Positions 2,172-32,622 of a stretch of DNA of 51,506 bases are shown piece after piece. Location: UHGV virus genome UHGV-0335272, one strand, 5' to 3'. Positions within the stretch are counted from its first letter, which is position 1. Every line of letters begins with the position of its first letter. The notes under the pieces are model-generated. The model saw only the letters and a program-made list of their open reading frames with translations, was not told the DNA's origin and made no database searches. Both the position numbers and the translations under genes were made by a program. The stretch is from a virus.

Positions 2172-2509
2172 AGCAGTTCCTGAGTCCGGGGTTGTCCGTC
2201 TGAGCCTTTCCAGCTCACCCGGAGCGTAAGATGTTCACCGTCAACGGCGGGTTTAACTGACGTCAGCTGGCAACGAGGCTCCCAGCGGCGAATGGCATCG
2301 ACGGACTCGCGCACGACGTGCGGAATGGCACGATCAACGGGCCAGTCGATATAAAGGTGCAGATTGCTGCCGAACTCCGGGCGGTGCGGGTCGCTGCCGC
2401 GAGGAGTGCGCAGAATGATTTGAATGGCCTGCCAGATATCATCCATCCCCTGGACGATTTCGCCGGGGGCCTGCATGGCCGGTTGCCAGAATACTGAGGT
2501 CGTTTTCAT
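2162..2509 (-). CDS. Baseplate wedge protein, GPW/gp25 family
   Basis: 115-aa ORF, size and position typical of GPW/gp25. Confidence 0.75.
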   Translation of the reverse strand: MKTTSVFWQPAMQAPGEIVQGMDDIWQAIQIILRTPRGSDPHRPEFGSNLHLYIDWPVDRAIPHVVRESVDAIRRWEPRCQLTSVKPAVDGEHLTLRVSWKGSDGQPRTQELLWR

Positions 2510-2564
2510 GGGGGCAGTATTGCCCCCGGAAGGGTTAGCCGATATTAAAGGCGTTTAAGAAGGT

Positions 2565-4527: not shown

Positions 4528-5411
4528 CAGACGCTCCTTGCCATTATTCTGGCTGCCATTGTGCTTAACCCCGGAGACATGCGGGTAAAAGTGGTGCTGG
4601 CGGAGTTCAGCTGACCGGAAACCGCATCCAGCGCCGCCGCGATATTGCTGCCGTCGACGCCGTTCAGCGCGGACTGTGCCTGCTGAACATACGAGGCGGC
4701 CTCACCGGTGGCCCGAGCCAGGCTGACAGCTTCCGGCATGGACTCTGCCAGCGCATTAAACGCCGGGATACTGCTCCCCAGTGAACCGGAGATGTTCCCC
4801 AGCCCGCTCATCAGCCCTGGTACACGGGTCAGCGCCACTGTCGGGTTATCCTTCATTTTCTGTGCAATCCGCACCGCGCTCATGGTGGTCTGGAGCACTG
4901 ACTGTGCCTGCTTCGCATAGTTGACGCCGTCCCGGACATACTGCGCCACGCCGGAAGGTGACGGAACCGCAGAAGATATCGCGCCTGTGCCCGGTACCTG
5001 TGCACGGATAGCGGGCGGCTTCAGAGGGTTTTTAGGGTCGCCGATGTACTCCCGGAGAGACGCGGTGGCATTGACGGCCAGCACGTTGCCGGTGCTGTCG
5101 GTCTGTTCACTGGTCGCGGTCACGTCGGTAATCACGAACCAGCCGCGATAGTCGCCGTTGCCAAAGACCAGCGCCAGCGCCTGATGAGCTTTCATCGCTG
5201 TTCTCAGGCGGGCCAGCTCGACGTCGGGCACACAATAATGCTGGTGAAAGACCAGGCTTATCTGGATTTCGTCCAGCTTGTCGCCAATGAACTGCAGGCC
5301 GGGCTTCCCTTCGATGCGGGCATGCTCGGCGTAATCGACGCCGAACGTCGCCTCGAAGCCGTCCCAGTAGGTAATCAGCTCAAACTCAATATCGCCCAGA
5401 ACTGCAAACAT
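4527..5411 (-). CDS. DNA circularization protein N / tail gpU-like (Mu gp43-like)
   Basis: 294-aa ORF immediately downstream of tape measure gene. Confidence 0.7.
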   Translation of the reverse strand: MFAVLGDIEFELITYWDGFEATFGVDYAEHARIEGKPGLQFIGDKLDEIQISLVFHQHYCVPDVELARLRTAMKAHQALALVFGNGDYRGWFVITDVTATSEQTDSTGNVLAVNATASLREYIGDPKNPLKPPAIRAQVPGTGAISSAVPSPSGVAQYVRDGVNYAKQAQSVLQTTMSAVRIAQKMKDNPTVALTRVPGLMSGLGNISGSLGSSIPAFNALAESMPEAVSLARATGEAASYVQQAQSALNGVDGSNIAAALDAVSGQLNSASTTFTRMSPGLSTMAARIMARSV

Positions 5412-8398: not shown

Positions 8399-8460
8399 GC
8401 TCCTGTGTAAGTTCAGGGCAGTATGCCTGGTGACGCGGGGAACAGATATTAAAGGGGATT

Positions 8461-8484
8461 AAGAAGAAAGGGGCCGAAGCCCCT
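8461..8484 (-). terminator. Putative intrinsic terminator inside tail operon
   Basis: Minus-strand GGGGC-TTCG-GCCCC hairpin followed by TTTCTTCTT, directly after the stop of ORF 8491..8772. Confidence 0.4.
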
Positions 8485-13492: not shown

Positions 13493-14638
13493 TTACAGGC
13501 AGCGGGAGACAGCAGCGTCGTAGCTGATGCCTTCTTTTTTCGACAGTTCCAGCGCTTTCTGATGCAGCGCCAGACGTTCCGGGTCGGCTTCAGCAAACTC
13601 CGCTGACGTCGTTTTGATATCCGTGCTCACGCGGTCTTTGGTCGCATGCTCACTGAAATTCAGTACCGGTGCAGTGCCATCCAGCAGTGTCTTAAACGCC
13701 GTGGCCAGCGGGGTGCGGGTATCGCCCTCGGCGAACTCGACAGGCTTATCGCCACCGGCTACCGCATCAAGAATGGCAACAACAACCGGTTTTGCTGCCG
13801 GGGTCAGGCGACCCGCGCCGACCAGCTTCTCGGCAAAGGAGACGTTGTCCGCGTGCAGCTTGTCCTGCCTGTTCTTCGCTTCCTGTTCCGCCCGCTGGGT
13901 GGCTTCTGCTTTCAGACGCGTGTTTTCCGCCTGAAGCGCTTTGATTTCTTCTTCAGTCATGGTGCTGTTCTCTTGTTGAGGGTTGGGATTGTGTTCACTG
14001 AAGTCCGGTTCAGACTTCCCGGTGTCGCGGTAAGCCTCTTCGCGCAGGGAGTCCACCTGCCATGAAGGAAGCACCTTGTCGGTCTCGTCCAGCCCGAACT
14101 GGGCGATCAGAAAATCACGCAGACGGCCCCATAAAGAGGCGTTGGTGATATCACTCCAGTCGGCAAACTCCACGACGCCTTCTTCTTTCTCACCAAACGA
14201 GACCTGCTTCAGCCCCTTAATGGACGGTGGCTGCGCGCCCAGAAAACCGACATGACGCAGGTAAAGCGTGCCGGGCTTCGGGTTGTTCGGTGAGTCAGGG
14301 AGATAGAATGAGGCGGAGACCTTCTTGAATCGTCCGTTGCCCACCAGTTCGGCAAACTGCGGGTCGAGCTGGTCAGGCTCTGCCAGCAGATCGCCGCCGT
14401 TAAGCGACAGGGATTTCACCCAGCCCCACGCCGGGTCTTCCGTTTTGGGGTGGCCAATAACGAGTGGTGCTTCATGGACGGACGGGTCATAGGCTTTCAC
14501 GCAGGCGGCAAGATCGCTTTGCGTGAACGGCAGTTTCGTGCCGTGCATATCGGTATGAGTACCGGCTTTAAAAATGTGAATGGCTGGCATTTTGCTGTCC
14601 CGCGTTACGTTGTCGGGGACAGTCTCTGGAAAAAGCAT
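13493..14638 (-). CDS. Head maturation protease/scaffold (Mu I-like)
   Basis: 381-aa ORF with acidic coiled-coil C-terminal half; true start may be the internal Met17. Confidence 0.75.
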   Translation of the reverse strand: MLFPETVPDNVTRDSKMPAIHIFKAGTHTDMHGTKLPFTQSDLAACVKAYDPSVHEAPLVIGHPKTEDPAWGWVKSLSLNGGDLLAEPDQLDPQFAELVGNGRFKKVSASFYLPDSPNNPKPGTLYLRHVGFLGAQPPSIKGLKQVSFGEKEEGVVEFADWSDITNASLWGRLRDFLIAQFGLDETDKVLPSWQVDSLREEAYRDTGKSEPDFSEHNPNPQQENSTMTEEEIKALQAENTRLKAEATQRAEQEAKNRQDKLHADNVSFAEKLVGAGRLTPAAKPVVVAILDAVAGGDKPVEFAEGDTRTPLATAFKTLLDGTAPVLNFSEHATKDRVSTDIKTTSAEFAEADPERLALHQKALELSKKEGISYDAAVSRCL

Positions 14639-14804
14639 CAGCAGCGCTTTTAATCTGCTTTAGAAAAAATCGGGGGTATCAGTAAGGGGAATGTCACGCT
14701 GCGGGCAAATAGTGGTGCAAAGCGGGGGCTGTAAAGCCTTTATAAAGATAATACAGCCCCTCAGCGGCTGGCAATGATAAATCACCCGCCTGCAGAGGCA
14801 AAAC

Positions 14805-15263
14805 TCAGCGACGGGCCGCTGCTTCAAGATGGCGGACAATCGTATCGAGGATGGGGACAACCACTTCAGGTTGCAGCTCACCGTCCCCTGTCAGCGGCAG
14901 GAACGGACGTGCCGGAAGTTCGACGGACTCATTACGCCCCGTTTTACCACCGAACTGGTGAATCGGCCCATAAACGACATTAGTGCCAACCGCTGCCTGC
15001 CGGTCGTCATGGTCGGTTGATACTGACCCCATCAGACGCCCGGTATCCTGCAGTGTTTGTCCGTCGCGCTCTTCCGCTGCCAGCGAGGGAGTCCACCCCG
15101 GACGCCCCTCATCGAGAAAGTTAAACTGCGTTTCCGCCAGCAGGGTTCCGGCGATTTTGCGCATCGCGGGTTCCAGGTCTGTGGCAGCCAGGTCCAGAGC
15201 ACGGAGACTCCGGCGCAGGGATTCATCGTTAATGGTGATATTGACCAGGTTATCGGAAGCCAT
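14805..15263 (-). CDS. Virion morphogenesis protein (Mu G-like)
   Basis: ORF trimmed to Met64 (MASDNLVNITINDESL...) with GAGAGG RBS; upstream gene ends at 15266. Confidence 0.65.
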   Translation of the reverse strand: MASDNLVNITINDESLRRSLRALDLAATDLEPAMRKIAGTLLAETQFNFLDEGRPGWTPSLAAEERDGQTLQDTGRLMGSVSTDHDDRQAAVGTNVVYGPIHQFGGKTGRNESVELPARPFLPLTGDGELQPEVVVPILDTIVRHLEAAARR

Positions 15264-17564: not shown

Positions 17565-19087
17565 CAGTAATCCTCCAGCATACGGGCTGCCTGACGGCGA
17601 CGGCGAGAGCTTGCCTTCACCGGCCCTTTGTTAATTTCACGGCTGGCAAAGTACGCCAGCGCCAGCGCGATAGCTGAATCCCCATGACGTTTGCCATTAT
17701 CCGTCTTCGCTTTTGAGCGCTGTTCCGGCACGCGGGGAACGCCGTTTACCACCTGAACGGCCCGCAGGTCATCCAGCGTGTCTTCATCCTTCGGCAAATC
17801 CACAAGGTTGCCATCTTCCAGCGCAGCCTTGACCGGCGGCATATGCTCGCGATACCAGCCCTCGGTGGGCATGACCTGCTTAACCCGGCTGGAGCCATAG
17901 CGCTGCATGGCGTATTCGGCGAGGTAGGAGCCGTTACCACGGGCATCGAGCGCAGCACCCATCAGGTTTGGCAGGCCGTCCATCAGATACCACGCAATTT
18001 GCTCCTGCTGTTTGAACGGCACGTTGCGCAGCTCCAGCACGAACGGTACGCGACGCACCAGGTTCTTCTCCTGCAGCAGGGGATAGTCCACCGACAGATC
18101 ACCGCTGCGACCAAAGTCGCGCCCCAGGAAAGAACGCGCGTCAGCAGGCAGCGCTTCCAGCAACGGTTTGAGGTGTTCGTACAACCAGTCCTGCGTCTCG
18201 CTCCAGCGGACATCGTCAGGCTTCAGCTCGTAGCCCTCCGGGCAGGTCAGGCGCAACACCGGTGTGTCAGCCGACATACGGGACTCAATCAGGGCGCGGG
18301 ACAGCCAGGCTCCGCCGCCGTTAGCCGGAACACAGTCAAGCTCCTCCGATGCACCGGCACCGTAGAATTTGTACACCGATGCCATCCACGCCTGCTCGGA
18401 CGCTTTCGACCATTCTTTCCCGGTACGCAGGCAGACGCGGTGGAACAGTCCCTCGGACACGGCCTCCTGGAAAGTAATGCGATGTACGCTGCCCCCCTGA
18501 CGCCCGGCCCGGATATCACCGATAAGCGTATTGAACGGGTTATCGTCACCGTCATGGGTGGAGATAACGCGCACTTTACCGCCCCAGATAAGCATCGCCA
18601 GCGCCGCCTTCAGCAGCTCGTCCAGTTGCTCATGGAACGCTGCTTCATCAATAACGATGATGCCCTGACGGCCACGCAGGTTCGACGGTCGACTGGAGAG
18701 CGCGACAACGCGGAAACCGGAGTCGGGAAACTTGATGGTGTAGGTCTTGATGTGCTTGTCGTCTTCGTCCTCCTCCCAGAAACCCTCTTCGATTTCGCTG
18801 GCGGCATAGTTGAATGCCCGCGCCCACATCGCACACGCCTGGATATATTCGACGGTCATGTCCTGGTTATAGGCGATGTAATACACGTTCATCCCGCCCG
18901 CAGGTGCTGAAGAGGCTGCGGTCAGAACATCATCGGACGCTTCAGCCCAGGTGATACCGGTACGGCGGCTCTTCTCAATCACCTTGAGCGGCGACGTATC
19001 AGCCACCCAGCGCTGCTGGTAAGGCATCAGAACGGCGGGGATATCCAGCGCCGAGGTATCAGGCAAAACGGGAGCAAGCTGGCTCAT
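17564..19087 (-). CDS. Terminase large subunit
   Basis: 507-aa ORF between small terminase and portal genes. Confidence 0.8.
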   Translation of the reverse strand: MSQLAPVLPDTSALDIPAVLMPYQQRWVADTSPLKVIEKSRRTGITWAEASDDVLTAASSAPAGGMNVYYIAYNQDMTVEYIQACAMWARAFNYAASEIEEGFWEEDEDDKHIKTYTIKFPDSGFRVVALSSRPSNLRGRQGIIVIDEAAFHEQLDELLKAALAMLIWGGKVRVISTHDGDDNPFNTLIGDIRAGRQGGSVHRITFQEAVSEGLFHRVCLRTGKEWSKASEQAWMASVYKFYGAGASEELDCVPANGGGAWLSRALIESRMSADTPVLRLTCPEGYELKPDDVRWSETQDWLYEHLKPLLEALPADARSFLGRDFGRSGDLSVDYPLLQEKNLVRRVPFVLELRNVPFKQQEQIAWYLMDGLPNLMGAALDARGNGSYLAEYAMQRYGSSRVKQVMPTEGWYREHMPPVKAALEDGNLVDLPKDEDTLDDLRAVQVVNGVPRVPEQRSKAKTDNGKRHGDSAIALALAYFASREINKGPVKASSRRRRQAARMLEDY

Positions 19088-30739: not shown

Positions 30740-30910
30740 ATGTGGGTACTTATTTTGTGGATGTTCACATCAGGTACTGAAGGCGAAGGCCTTGTCATAA
30801 CATCTCCGGAATTTACTACTGAGAGTGCCTGCAGGGCAGCATTCCAGGAAGTTAAACGCGTCAATGCCGGTGAAATTTATCTTCGCGGTGTATGCACACC
30901 AAAGGACTAA
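30740..30910 (+). CDS. Hypothetical small protein (56 aa)
   Basis: Manually translated ORF MWVLILWMFTSGTEGEG..., below ORF-track size cutoff; tight spacing to neighbours. Confidence 0.3.
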   Translation: MWVLILWMFTSGTEGEGLVITSPEFTTESACRAAFQEVKRVNAGEIYLRGVCTPKD

Positions 30911-31818: not shown

Positions 31819-32236
31819 ACAGCGCCTCATTCAACTTATTCATATTGCCCGCAGCGACCTCCAGATGGATGAGGATACCTACCGCCAGATGCTGCAGGGG
31901 CTGACCGGCAAAGCCTCGACCAAAGGGATGGATATCACACAGCTAAACAGCGTGCTGGAATCCATGAAAAAGAAAGGTTTTCGCGTTAAGCCTGCCGGGA
32001 AATCCAGGTCCGGTTTACCGCTGGATAGCCATCCTCAGTCAAAGAAAATCCGTGCACTATGGCTTGAAATGGCTGCGGCAGGTGTCGTCCGTGACAGTTC
32101 AGAGCAGGCGCTGGCGCTATGGGTTAAACGGGAAACGGGCATCAGCGCGTTACGCTGGCTCAGCAATGAGCAGGCAAGTAGCGTTATTGAGAAACTGAAA
32201 AAGTGGCAGCGTAGGGCTGCGGGGGTGAAGCAATGA
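31808..32236 (+). CDS. GemA-like regulatory protein
   Basis: ORF trimmed to ATGATG with AGGTGAGG RBS; immediately upstream of mor. Confidence 0.6.
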   Translation: MMTKQRLIQLIHIARSDLQMDEDTYRQMLQGLTGKASTKGMDITQLNSVLESMKKKGFRVKPAGKSRSGLPLDSHPQSKKIRALWLEMAAAGVVRDSSEQALALWVKRETGISALRWLSNEQASSVIEKLKKWQRRAAGVKQ

Positions 32237-32622
32237 GCGACCTGAATCAGTTTCGTAGTAAAGGGCCGGAACTGTTGGTGGAACTGGCACAGCACACCTC
32301 TGAGACCGTCCGCGAGATTATTGATATCGAACCAGCAGTTGCCGACCAGATTGGTCAGGCCGTCGCGAACCGCATGATGCAGGTCTGGGGCGGCCAAAAC
32401 GTCTATTTCCCGATGGGCATGGTCTGGAAGGTCAGCCAGCGCGACCGTGAAATTTTCCTGGAGTTTGACGGGCGCAACCATCACGAACTGGCCCGTAAAT
32501 TTGGTGTTTCGCTACAGTGGGTTTACAGCGTGGTGAAGCGGGTCAGAAAAGAAGAACTGGATCGGATGCAGGGCAAACTGTTTGATGGTGAACCCGATGC
32601 CGATACGGGGAAAAAGGAGTAA
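32233..32622 (+). CDS. Mor/C-family transcriptional activator
   Basis: 129 aa; GGQNVYFP ... DGRNHHELARKFGVSLQWVYSVVKR matches Mor/C family pattern. Confidence 0.8.
   Translation: MSDLNQFRSKGPELLVELAQHTSETVREIIDIEPAVADQIGQAVANRMMQVWGGQNVYFPMGMVWKVSQRDREIFLEFDGRNHHELARKFGVSLQWVYSVVKRVRKEELDRMQGKLFDGEPDADTGKKE

What the first reader, a model, noticed from the sequence alone, without database searches (positions are those of the whole stretch)
14639..14804. 165-bp noncoding gap with a long hairpin inside the head-gene operon
Between the G-like and protease/scaffold genes, the minus strand carries a 9-bp stem (GGGGCTGTA ... TACAGCCCC) with an 18-nt AT-rich loop and no strong U-tract. It could be a processing site, attenuator or a late-promoter element.
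Basis: seen in the sequence. Interest (0 to 1): 0.2.

Follow-up and report, generated by a model that had tools for sequence, protein, structure and literature searches.

The report
Operon-boundary hairpin upstream of a late promoter

Summary
The 9-bp stem with an 18-nt loop exists exactly as described (minus strand, 14760-14725). The window holds a BcepMu-type transposable prophage. The true G-to-protease gap is 214 bp (14591-14804), because the protease starts at ATG 14590.

The gap contains four elements:
1. The hairpin.
2. A 60-nt C-rich, G-poor tract.
3. A Mor/C-type activator box (14665-14646), then 21 nt, then a -10 hexamer (GAGACT, 14626-14621). This layout holds in 48 of 51 relatives, and the same box marks three other late operons in the window.
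4. A covarying stem-loop (14622-14595) that hides the ribosome-binding site only in read-through RNA.

So the promoter idea is right for the gap but wrong for the hairpin.

The outer stem is clade-specific. Only the core TTTATAAAG is conserved, down to about 49% protease identity, and it appears in either orientation. Sister lineages follow the same hairpin with a proper U-tract; this window has only CGCUUUGC. Phage Mu has a hairpin of the same build at the same position.

The best reading is a leaky terminator or 3'-end-protecting stem within an operon insulator (confidence about 0.5). A Mu-like strong gyrase site was tested with a reconstructed, Mu-validated matrix and not found. The finding is ordinary, with one unexplained detail.

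The parts
14805..15263 (-). G-like virion morphogenesis gene, the last gene of the upstream late unit (holin to G). Its stop codon TGA is at 14807-14805.
   Evidence: Pfam Phage_tail_S, E = 4.9e-22. The start at 15263 follows the KP12 and PhiKM annotations.
14725..14760 (-). The reported hairpin: 9-bp outer stem (14760-14752 with 14733-14725), internal loop, 4-bp inner stem, apical tetraloop. It is a 36-bp near-palindrome.
   Evidence: -18.4 kcal/mol, z = -2.96. It is single-copy in the window. The outer stem is present only in the closest clades.
14737..14746 (-). Invariant core TTTATAAAGG (palindrome CTTTATAAAG at 14747-14738). With CTTTAC it forms the 16-mer at 14746-14731.
   Evidence: Identical in all 23 distinct relatives first aligned, including Burkholderia phage BcepMu. 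The core TTTATAAAG is present in about 55 of 70 distinct protease-selected loci, down to about 49% protease identity, at variable distance from the ATG. It sits at the apex of clade-specific palindromes and appears as the reverse complement in one clade.
14666..14724 (-). C-rich, G-poor untranslated tract between the hairpin and the promoter box (candidate Rho-loading region).
   Evidence: C exceeds G in 49 of 49 distinct relatives: mean C 0.38, G 0.17, median C/G 2.56. An equal-length stretch upstream of the core has C 0.30 and G 0.30.
14646..14665 (-). Activator box of the late promoter for the protease/scaffold operon (the counterpart of Mu P_I): TTCTAAAGCAGATTAAAAGC, core 14662-14648.
   Evidence: Nearly universal in relatives and at a fixed distance from the ATG. 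It is the top matrix hit in the prophage at 29.0 bits. A matrix built from orthologues of this box alone recovers the boxes of three other late operons.
14621..14626 (-). -10 hexamer GAGACT (relatives have CAGACT, CAAACT, GACACT and others). The predicted transcription start is near 14614.
   Evidence: An nAnnnT hexamer lies exactly 21 nt after the box in 48 of 51 distinct contexts. Other offsets give at most 4 of 47, apart from an echo at +23. The spacer sequence has diverged while its length is fixed. In Burkholderia-type clades, and at the baseplate promoter, the ATG lies 6-7 nt after the hexamer, as expected for leaderless mRNA.
14595..14622 (-). Stem-loop CTGTCCCCG ... CG-GGGACAG, running from the last two bases of the -10 to 5 nt before the ATG and covering the Shine-Dalgarno-like GGGA. 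Its left arm lies at or upstream of the predicted start, so it can form only in read-through RNA.
   Evidence: All 17 clade representatives fold this way using different sequences. Native mean -13.9 kcal/mol against -8.0 for left/right chimeras, p = 4.5e-7.
13493..14590 (-). Protease/scaffold gene (counterpart of Mu I), with its true start at ATG 14590.
   Evidence: Homologues. KP12 annotates the equivalent start. The ATG at 14638 falls inside the promoter spacer.
32233..32622 (+). The prophage's only Mor/C-family transcription activator, the presumed reader of the boxes.
   Evidence: Pfam Mor PF08765, E = 1e-42. The orthologues are annotated as late activators in BcepMu, phiE255 and PhiKM.
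22017..22061 (-). Sister late promoter upstream of the holin: box 22061-22042, -10 GATGCT at 22022-17.
8420..8483 (-). Sister late promoter upstream of the tail-chaperone gene: canonical terminator GGGGCTTCGGCCCC (8483-8470) plus T-tract, abutting box 8464-8445, -10 CATACT at 8425-20.
2509..2560 (-). Sister late promoter upstream of the baseplate W-like gene: box 2560-2541, -10 AATACT at 2521-16, ATG at 2509 (leaderless geometry).

Best explanation
The hairpin marks the 3' boundary of the first late transcription unit (holin, lysis genes, terminase, portal, F, G). On the late mRNA it forms a stable GC-clamped stem 44 nt after the G stop codon. There it acts as a leaky intrinsic terminator, and/or as the stem that protects the upstream message's 3' end after the RNA is terminated further downstream.

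It is the first of four elements that together insulate the protease/scaffold operon from read-through:
1. The hairpin.
2. A 60-nt C-rich, G-poor untranslated tract suited to Rho loading.
3. An activator-dependent promoter, read by the prophage's Mor-family protein, that restarts transcription near 14614.
4. A stem-loop whose 5' arm lies upstream of that start. Only read-through RNA can fold it and bury the ribosome-binding site.

What is shown: the anatomy, the promoter geometry, the covariation of element 4 and the composition of element 2. What is inferred: termination, Rho involvement and translational masking.

The invariant AT-rich core of the hairpin is not explained by this model.
For: - Position: immediately downstream of the last gene of a co-oriented late block and upstream of a promoter that needs an activator.
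- The same prophage uses a terminator-then-promoter layout at the tail-chaperone gap, with a canonical terminator abutting the box.
- The closest sister lineages keep the same hairpin and follow it with a proper U-tract: PhiKM type AGGGGCTGTA...TACAGCCTCT then GUUUUAUAA; L169/L170 then UUUUCCCC.
- Across 24 flank clusters a T-run lies within 30 nt downstream in 8 (background 0.14, p = 0.015) but upstream in only 1.
- Mu has, at the same position, a hairpin of the same build (9-bp stem, internal loop, 4-bp inner stem; -19.8 kcal/mol, z = -4.2) followed by UUUUAUCUU.
- The hairpin is locally non-random.
- The spacer is C-rich and G-poor in 49 of 49 relatives.
- The read-through-only stem-loop covaries, p = 4.5e-7.
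Against: - In this window the tail is only CGCUUUGC, and the terminator scan does not call the hairpin.
- Family-wide arm complementarity is only marginal: native -14.9 against chimeras -13.0 kcal/mol, p = 0.043. Several clades have no outer stem.
- A terminator does not explain why the loop centre is the invariant part, why the element appears as its reverse complement in one clade, or why its spacing to the promoter box tends to whole helical turns (p about 0.03).
- The antisense strand folds as well or better in most clusters, so there is no sign of selection on the sense RNA.
- No transcript data were available.
Confidence: 0.5

Rival explanations
1. The element works as double-stranded DNA. 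The invariant core (alternating CTTTA/TAAAG blocks with an 11-bp period) would be a binding site for a phage or host protein, for example an extra site for the Mor-family activator, which in Mu binds as a tetramer over two sites. Alternatively it is a fixed bend that assists the promoter about 8 helical turns downstream. On this view the hairpin potential is a by-product of dyad symmetry.
For: - Sequence-level invariance of the core while both arms vary.
- The same 21-nt element occurs as its reverse complement in clade L205/208/213/215/220.
- Read on the opposite strand, it ranks 11th of about 68,000 positions with the promoter-box matrix (9.8 bits) and matches some box variants at 13 of 16 positions.
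- 12 of 16 unique core-to-box spacings fall within a quarter turn of an integer number of turns.
- Mor and C bind as tetramers over an A site and a B site (bioRxiv 10.1101/2025.05.02.651988).
Against: - Three unrelated coding-region positions score as well as it does, and BcepMu's own copy scores below 4.6 bits.
- The core does not change in clades where the box changes.
- The phasing statistic is weak and its data points are not phylogenetically independent.
- About 12 of the most distant relatives lack the core but keep the promoter.
- No binding protein can be named.
Confidence: 0.25
2. It is the functional counterpart of the central strong gyrase site (SGS) that phage Mu carries in the same G-I gap, helping prophage ends to synapse for replicative transposition.
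For: - The Mu record annotates the gyrase cut site 20 bp after the G stop codon, in the homologous gap.
- The gap lies at 51% of the BcepMu genome and 52% of KP12.
- Whether other transposable phages have such a site is stated as an open question (PMC5977238).
- The core is a GC-flanked TnAn block, like those in the Mu SGS right arm.
Against: - A gyrase matrix was reconstructed from 282 published cleavage sites with their scores. It ranks the held-out Mu SGS 3rd in the Mu genome at the annotated cut.
- With that matrix the gap is unremarkable: peak-rank 215 in this prophage (7.5 bits), 87 in KP12, 312 in PhiKM, 71 in BcepMu and 194 in phiE255.
- This fails the criterion fixed beforehand (top 3 and at least 10 bits).
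- The central position follows from gene order alone.
Confidence: 0.05
3. The hairpin region is itself a sigma-70 promoter: TTTACA (14733-14728) as the -35, with the AT-rich palindrome as an UP-like element.
For: An unrelated low-GC phage family carries the identical CCTTTATAAAGGCTTTACA exactly 17 bp upstream of TATAAA-type hexamers (L051, L060, L072, L095, L108, L111, L117, L140). TTTACA matches the consensus at 5 of 6 positions.
Against: At 17 +/- 1 bp downstream this family has no consistent -10: TATTTG/TATTCG in this clade, TTTAAT in clade B, and nothing in PhiKM, the Pectobacterium clade or BcepMu. The right flank CTTTAC is lost in distant clades that keep the core.
Confidence: 0.07
4. 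The 9-bp stem has no function of its own. It is a lineage-specific extension of a small conserved palindrome, fixed by drift.
For: The outer arms are absent or different in most clades. Perfect 9-bp stems are not rare in the window.
Against: The stem is kept, with only pairing-compatible changes, across many enterobacterial genera and in the 87%-identical PhiKM lineage, and it is lengthened in L169/L170. It is locally significant.
Confidence: 0.1

Closest known systems
The G-I intergenic region of phage Mu (end of the lys late transcript, strong gyrase site, and C-dependent promoter P_I)
   Same: Same two flanking genes and gene order. A gap of about 200 bp at mid-genome. A hairpin of the same build (9-bp outer stem, internal loop, 4-bp inner stem) after the G stop codon. 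A late promoter dependent on a Mor/C-family activator in front of the protease gene (PMC2582627, PMC4461284).
   Different: There is no detectable sequence similarity. Mu's hairpin has a clear U-tract and this one does not. Mu's gap scores as a strong gyrase site and this one does not. That the Mu lys transcript ends at this hairpin is my recollection of Zha, Zhao and Howe, J Bacteriol 1994; I could not retrieve the paper.
Mor/C-dependent promoters of Mu (Pm, Plys, P_I, P_P, Pmom)
   Same: This applies to the box at 14665-14646, not to the hairpin. There is a recognisable -10, no -35 (1 of 6 matches), an imperfect dyad whose axis falls near -42 (Mu: -43.5), an activator of the same Pfam family encoded by the phage, and the same box in front of several late operons.
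   Different: The box sequence is unrelated to the Mu sites (TAAAGCnGATTAAAA against TTAT-N6-ATAA). The centre is about 1.5 bp closer to the -10. A single activator replaces the Mor-then-C cascade. Some promoters give leaderless mRNAs.
Intrinsic (Rho-independent) terminators
   Same: A GC-rich stem shortly after a stop codon, at -18 kcal/mol. Sister lineages add a U-tract.
   Different: In this window the tail is CGCUUUGC. The nominal loop is 18 nt (4 nt once the inner stem forms). The apical sequence is conserved, which terminators do not require.
Fold-back inhibition of read-through transcripts in IS10/Tn10 (from memory: Davis, Simons and Kleckner, Cell 1985)
   Same: This applies to the second stem-loop (14622-14595). 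Its 5' arm lies upstream of the element's own transcription start, so only externally initiated RNA can pair and hide the ribosome-binding site.
   Different: Here it sits inside a phage late region rather than at a transposon end, and the effect on translation is inferred, not measured.

Membership tests
Intrinsic terminator | Stable GC-rich hairpin just downstream of a stop codon on the transcribed strand | tested here: met
   9-bp stem with 6 G-C pairs, 44 nt after the G stop codon, -18.4 kcal/mol, z = -2.96.
Intrinsic terminator | Run of U (about 5 of 8) immediately after the stem | tested here: not met
   In the window the tail is CGCUUUGC (3 of 8), and the scan does not call it. The feature is met in the sister lineages PhiKM type (GUUUUAUAA) and L169/L170 (UUUUCCCC). 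A T-run lies downstream in 8 of 24 clusters, p = 0.015.
Intrinsic terminator | Hairpin maintained by compensatory change across relatives | tested here: inconclusive
   Native against chimeric arms: -14.9 against -13.0 kcal/mol, p = 0.043. Strong in some clusters, absent in others. No sense-strand bias.
Mor/C-dependent late promoter (the hairpin itself) | Imperfect dyad centred near -43.5, with a -10 hexamer at the matching distance | tested here: not met
   Best match 9.8 bits, on the opposite strand, with no nAnnnT at +21. Its distance to the gene varies from -129 to -190.
Mor/C-dependent late promoter (box at 14665-14646) | Phage-encoded Mor/C activator; a -10 present; no -35; a dyad near -43.5; recurrence at other late operons | tested here: met
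   Mor family, E = 1e-42. nAnnnT at +21 in 48 of 51 contexts. The -35 position matches 1 of 6. The dyad axis is near -42, calibrated on Pmom. The matrix recovers three other late gaps. Actual activation was not tested.
Mu-type strong gyrase site | Location in the G-I gap near the genome centre | tested here: met
   51% of the BcepMu genome and 52% of KP12. The Mu cut site is annotated in the homologous gap.
Mu-type strong gyrase site | Outstanding match to the 130-bp gyrase motif (the Mu SGS is the best site in Mu with the published matrix) | tested here: not met
   With the reconstructed matrix the held-out Mu SGS ranks 3rd at 11.2 bits. The window gap ranks 215th at 7.5 bits, and the relatives rank 71st to 312th. 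Caveat: the matrix is a reconstruction and reflects the E. coli enzyme.
Mu-type strong gyrase site | Gyrase cleavage, and dependence of replication on the site | not testable with these tools
   Needs Topo-Seq or in vitro cleavage, and deletion mutants.
Any curated RNA family (Rfam 15) | Covariance-model match | tested here: not met
   No match at E up to 1 in 14400-15000, on either strand.

The most novel reading that the evidence does not exclude
The invariant core TTTATAAAG, flanked by CTTTA/TAAAG blocks at an 11-bp period, is a dedicated double-stranded DNA site: a second docking site for the tetrameric Mor-family activator, or an architectural bend. It is kept in helical phase with the protease-operon promoter and works in either orientation. 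If so, BcepMu-type transposable phages would hold a previously undescribed upstream control element at the genome centre, where Mu keeps its gyrase site.
Probability: 0.15. Interest if true: 0.55.

Novelty: new member of a known kind. Interest (0 to 1): 0.3.

Why it matters
The hairpin by itself matters little; it looks like one more operon-boundary stem. The value is in the context it led to, in three respects.

- A consistent, testable map of late transcription for a widespread group of enterobacterial and Burkholderia transposable prophages: four activator boxes with fixed geometry, two apparently leaderless messages, and a gap built to stop read-through from being translated. A relative of this gap region was found in 637 of 5,426 complete E. 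coli genomes.
- A corrected start for the protease gene.
- A first computational answer (negative, with caveats) to the open question of whether these phages carry a Mu-like central gyrase site.

Tried and rejected
- **Sense-strand G·U selection.** By eye, nearly all arm substitutions seemed to keep pairing as G·U on the sense strand. The global test went the other way: the antisense strand folds better in most clusters. Dropped.
- **Gyrase surrogates.** A W/S dot product with the published consensus ranked the Mu SGS poorly. The Pearson version gave only peak-rank 18, and 10-11-bp periodicity power failed outright. A count matrix from 282 sites gave r = 0.80 with the authors' scores but ranked the Mu SGS 53rd. 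All were rejected as unvalidated. Only the symmetric ridge reconstruction passed.
- **RNAalifold on the -10-to-ATG region.** It found nothing because MAFFT could not keep the arms in register. Replaced by an alignment-free chimera test.
- **Automated outermost-helix picking for the U-tract count.** It mis-assigned helix ends. Replaced by a simple T-run/A-run count.
- **Hairpin as a recurring motif.** The 9-mer, the 18-mer and the dyad pattern are single-copy in the window.
- **Small ORFs in the gap.** KP12 annotates 41 codons, equivalent to window 14785-14660, and phiE255 annotates gp7. Indels that are not multiples of three, and a 23-nt length difference between clades, argue against coding.
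- **Literature.** Oram et al. 2006 and the Mu lys-terminator paper are not held. The published gyrase matrix sheet was cut off in storage.

Full report
**What is there**

On the minus strand, GGGGCTGTA (14760-14752) pairs with TACAGCCCC (14733-14725) around an 18-nt AT-rich loop. The loop contains a further 4-bp stem, so the element is a 36-bp near-palindrome. It folds at -18.4 kcal/mol (z = -2.96, 1 of 200 shuffles), and the opposite strand folds about equally well. It is single-copy in the window. Perfect 9-bp stems are not rare at window scale: about 10 distinct, against 4 expected. No U-run follows the stem, and the terminator scan does not call it.

**Context**

The window carries a BcepMu-type transposable prophage with its late genes on the minus strand: terminase, Mu-type portal, F, a G-like gene (14805-15263), protease/scaffold, then major head. 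It encodes a single Mor/C-family activator at 32233-32622 (Pfam Mor, E = 1e-42). Close relatives occur in Klebsiella phage KP12, in Escherichia phages, and in 637 of 5,426 complete E. coli genomes.

**Conservation**

I used 20 loci from many enterobacterial genera, the phages PhiKM, BcepMu and phiE255, and an unbiased set of 80 viral contigs chosen only by protease homology, at 47-99% identity. The findings:

- The 9-bp outer stem is confined to the closest clades.
- The centre of the loop, TTTATAAAG(G), is what is conserved. It is identical in every sequence of the first alignment, including Burkholderia BcepMu. It is present in about 55 of 70 distinct protease-selected loci, down to about 49% protease identity, at a variable distance from the gene (-129 to -190).
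- The core always sits at the apex of some palindrome, but the arms differ by clade. In two clades the core is duplicated. In one clade the whole 21-nt element appears as its reverse complement.
- Arm complementarity across 24 clusters is only marginally better than in chimeras (p = 0.043), and there is no sense-strand bias.

**The promoter is elsewhere in the gap**

A second box, TAAAGCnGATTAAAA (window 14662-14648), is nearly universal and lies at a fixed distance from the ATG. The evidence that it is part of a late promoter:

- Exactly 21 nt downstream, 48 of 51 distinct contexts carry an nAnnnT hexamer (here GAGACT, 14626-14621). Other offsets give at most 4 of 47, apart from an echo at +23. 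The spacer sequence has diverged freely at constant length.
- A matrix built from these orthologues alone picks out, as its next best hits in the 34-kb prophage, boxes in the three other late-region gaps: holin 22061-22042, baseplate 2560-2541 and tail chaperone 8464-8445. Each has nAnnnT at +21. The same holds in PhiKM, BcepMu and phiE255.
- The dyad axis falls near -42 and there is no -35. Mu's Mor and C sites are 16-bp imperfect dyads centred at -43.5 on promoters that have a -10 but lack a -35 (PMC2582627, PMC4287176). I calibrated the geometry on Pmom.
- In Burkholderia-type clades, and at the baseplate promoter, the ATG lies 6-7 nt after the hexamer, the spacing expected for leaderless mRNA. 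This independently supports the -10 assignment.

It follows that the protease starts at ATG 14590 and the gap is 214 bp.

**Two further elements**

- The 60 nt between the hairpin and the box are C-rich and G-poor in 49 of 49 distinct relatives (C 0.38, G 0.17), as in Rho-loading tracts.
- A stem-loop runs from the last bases of the -10 to just before the ATG (14622-14595). It is present in every enteric-type clade with different sequences (native -13.9 against chimeras -8.0 kcal/mol, p = 4.5e-7). Its left arm is upstream of the predicted start, so only read-through RNA can fold it and hide the ribosome-binding site.

**Reading of the hairpin**

It lies 44 nt after the last stop codon of the holin-to-G unit, at the head of a gap that otherwise looks designed to neutralise read-through. 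The same prophage places a canonical terminator directly against the tail-chaperone promoter box.

Sister lineages keep this hairpin and add a proper U-tract (PhiKM type GUUUUAUAA; L169/L170 UUUUCCCC). T-runs lie downstream in 8 of 24 clusters but upstream in only 1. Mu has a hairpin of the same build, followed by UUUUAUCUU, at the same place. From memory, that is where the Mu lys transcript ends; I could not retrieve the paper.

I therefore read the hairpin as a leaky terminator and/or a 3'-end-protecting stem, with confidence about 0.5. Termination, Rho action and translational masking are all inferred.

**What this does not explain**

- The invariance of the loop centre.
- Its orientation independence.
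- A weak tendency of the core-to-box spacing towards whole helical turns: 12 of 16 unique spacings, p about 0.03, not phylogenetically independent.

A DNA-level site is the main rival. Read on the opposite strand the core region scores 9.8 bits with the box matrix (rank 11 of about 68,000). But three coding-region positions score alike, BcepMu's own copy scores below 4.6 bits, and there is no -10 at +21.

A sigma-70 promoter with TTTACA as the -35 is used by an unrelated low-GC phage family carrying the identical sequence. This family has no consistent -10 at the right distance.

**Gyrase site**

Mu's central strong gyrase site lies in the homologous gap, and whether other transposable phages have one is an open question (PMC5977238). 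The published matrix was not available and simple surrogates failed validation. I therefore reconstructed the matrix:

- Input was 282 published cleavage sites with the authors' scores and the W3110 sequence. The coordinates were verified by the quinolone G/C signature.
- A symmetric ridge regression, anchored on the published consensus in the register of maximal self-symmetry, gave a cross-validated r of about 0.82.
- It ranks the held-out Mu SGS 3rd in the Mu genome, at the annotated cut. The held-out scrambled control scores 3.5, against 2.5 published.
- Against a criterion fixed beforehand (top 3 and at least 10 bits), the gap fails in this prophage (7.5 bits, rank 215) and in KP12, PhiKM, BcepMu and phiE255 (ranks 71-312).

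Rfam has no match.

**Verdict**

The hairpin is an ordinary kind of element, an operon-boundary stem in a Mu-like late region, with one unexplained conserved core. The more informative results are by-products: the late-promoter map, the read-through-only stem-loop, the leaderless starts, the corrected gene start and the negative gyrase-site test.

Noticed in passing
window 22017-22061, 8420-8464 and 2516-2560 (minus strand), with 14621-14665: Four late promoters share one layout: a box (consensus TTnTAAAGCnGATTAAAAG, or the variant CTTAA-N4-CTTTAATAT), then 21 nt, then an nAnnnT hexamer. They lie upstream of the holin, the protease, the tail-chaperone gene and the baseplate W-like gene. The same set is found in PhiKM, BcepMu and phiE255.
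   Followed up: yes
window 14595-14622 (minus strand): A covarying stem-loop runs from the -10 hexamer to the ribosome-binding site of the protease gene. Its 5' arm lies upstream of the predicted transcription start, so it should form only in read-through RNA (native against chimera, p = 4.5e-7).
   Followed up: yes
window 2509-2521; L025 (BcepMu) 30769-30823 and 18836-18880: The start codon lies 6-7 nt after the -10 hexamer (AATACT-GCCCCC-ATG, CAACAT-GGCCGC-ATG, GATGAT-GGGCGCC-ATG). This implies leaderless mRNAs for the baseplate gene in both lineages and for the protease gene in Burkholderia-type phages. BcepMu's annotated gp32 start, an ATG inside the hexamer, is probably too early.
   Followed up: partly
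window 14666-14724 (minus strand): The tract between the hairpin and the promoter box is C-rich and G-poor in all 49 distinct relatives (median C/G 2.56). This is the composition expected of a Rho-loading site in untranslated RNA.
   Followed up: partly
window 14588-14638; L001 (KP12) 18178-18303; L028 (phiE255) 4975-5106: The first ATG of the protease ORF (14638) lies inside the promoter spacer, so the start is 14590. The small hypothetical ORFs that KP12 and phiE255 annotate in this gap are probably not genes, because indels between clades do not preserve a reading frame.
   Followed up: partly
L030 (PhiKM) 30842-30861, minus strand; window 22887-22906: PhiKM has a good box (19.5 bits) with CATCAT at +21 upstream of its DNA adenine methylase, recalling Mu's late mom gene. 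Upstream of the window's methylase (23082-23852) there is only a weak box (9.6 bits) with no hexamer at +21.
   Followed up: no
L051, L060, L072, L095, L108, L111, L117, L140 (IMG/VR contigs, 31-42% GC): An unrelated low-GC phage family carries the identical CCTTTATAAAGGCTTTACA exactly 17 bp upstream of TATAAA-type hexamers, so there it is an UP-like element plus -35 of a sigma-70 promoter.
   Followed up: no
L029 (Chromohalobacter phage YPCBV-1) 18449-18734: [quoted passage not shown] The reconstructed gyrase matrix nevertheless ranks the gap only 120th in that genome.
   Followed up: partly
window 8461-8483 (minus strand): A textbook intrinsic terminator (GGGGC-TTCG-GCCCC plus TTTCTTCTT) has a U-tract that doubles as the upstream half of the tail-chaperone promoter box. 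BcepMu and phiE255 have the same arrangement with a different stem and the same TTCG loop.
   Followed up: partly
L027 (Mu) 25590 and 18817: With the reconstructed gyrase matrix, two Mu positions score as high as or higher than the known gyrase site. This probably reflects imperfection in the reconstruction, since the published matrix ranks the known site first.
   Followed up: no
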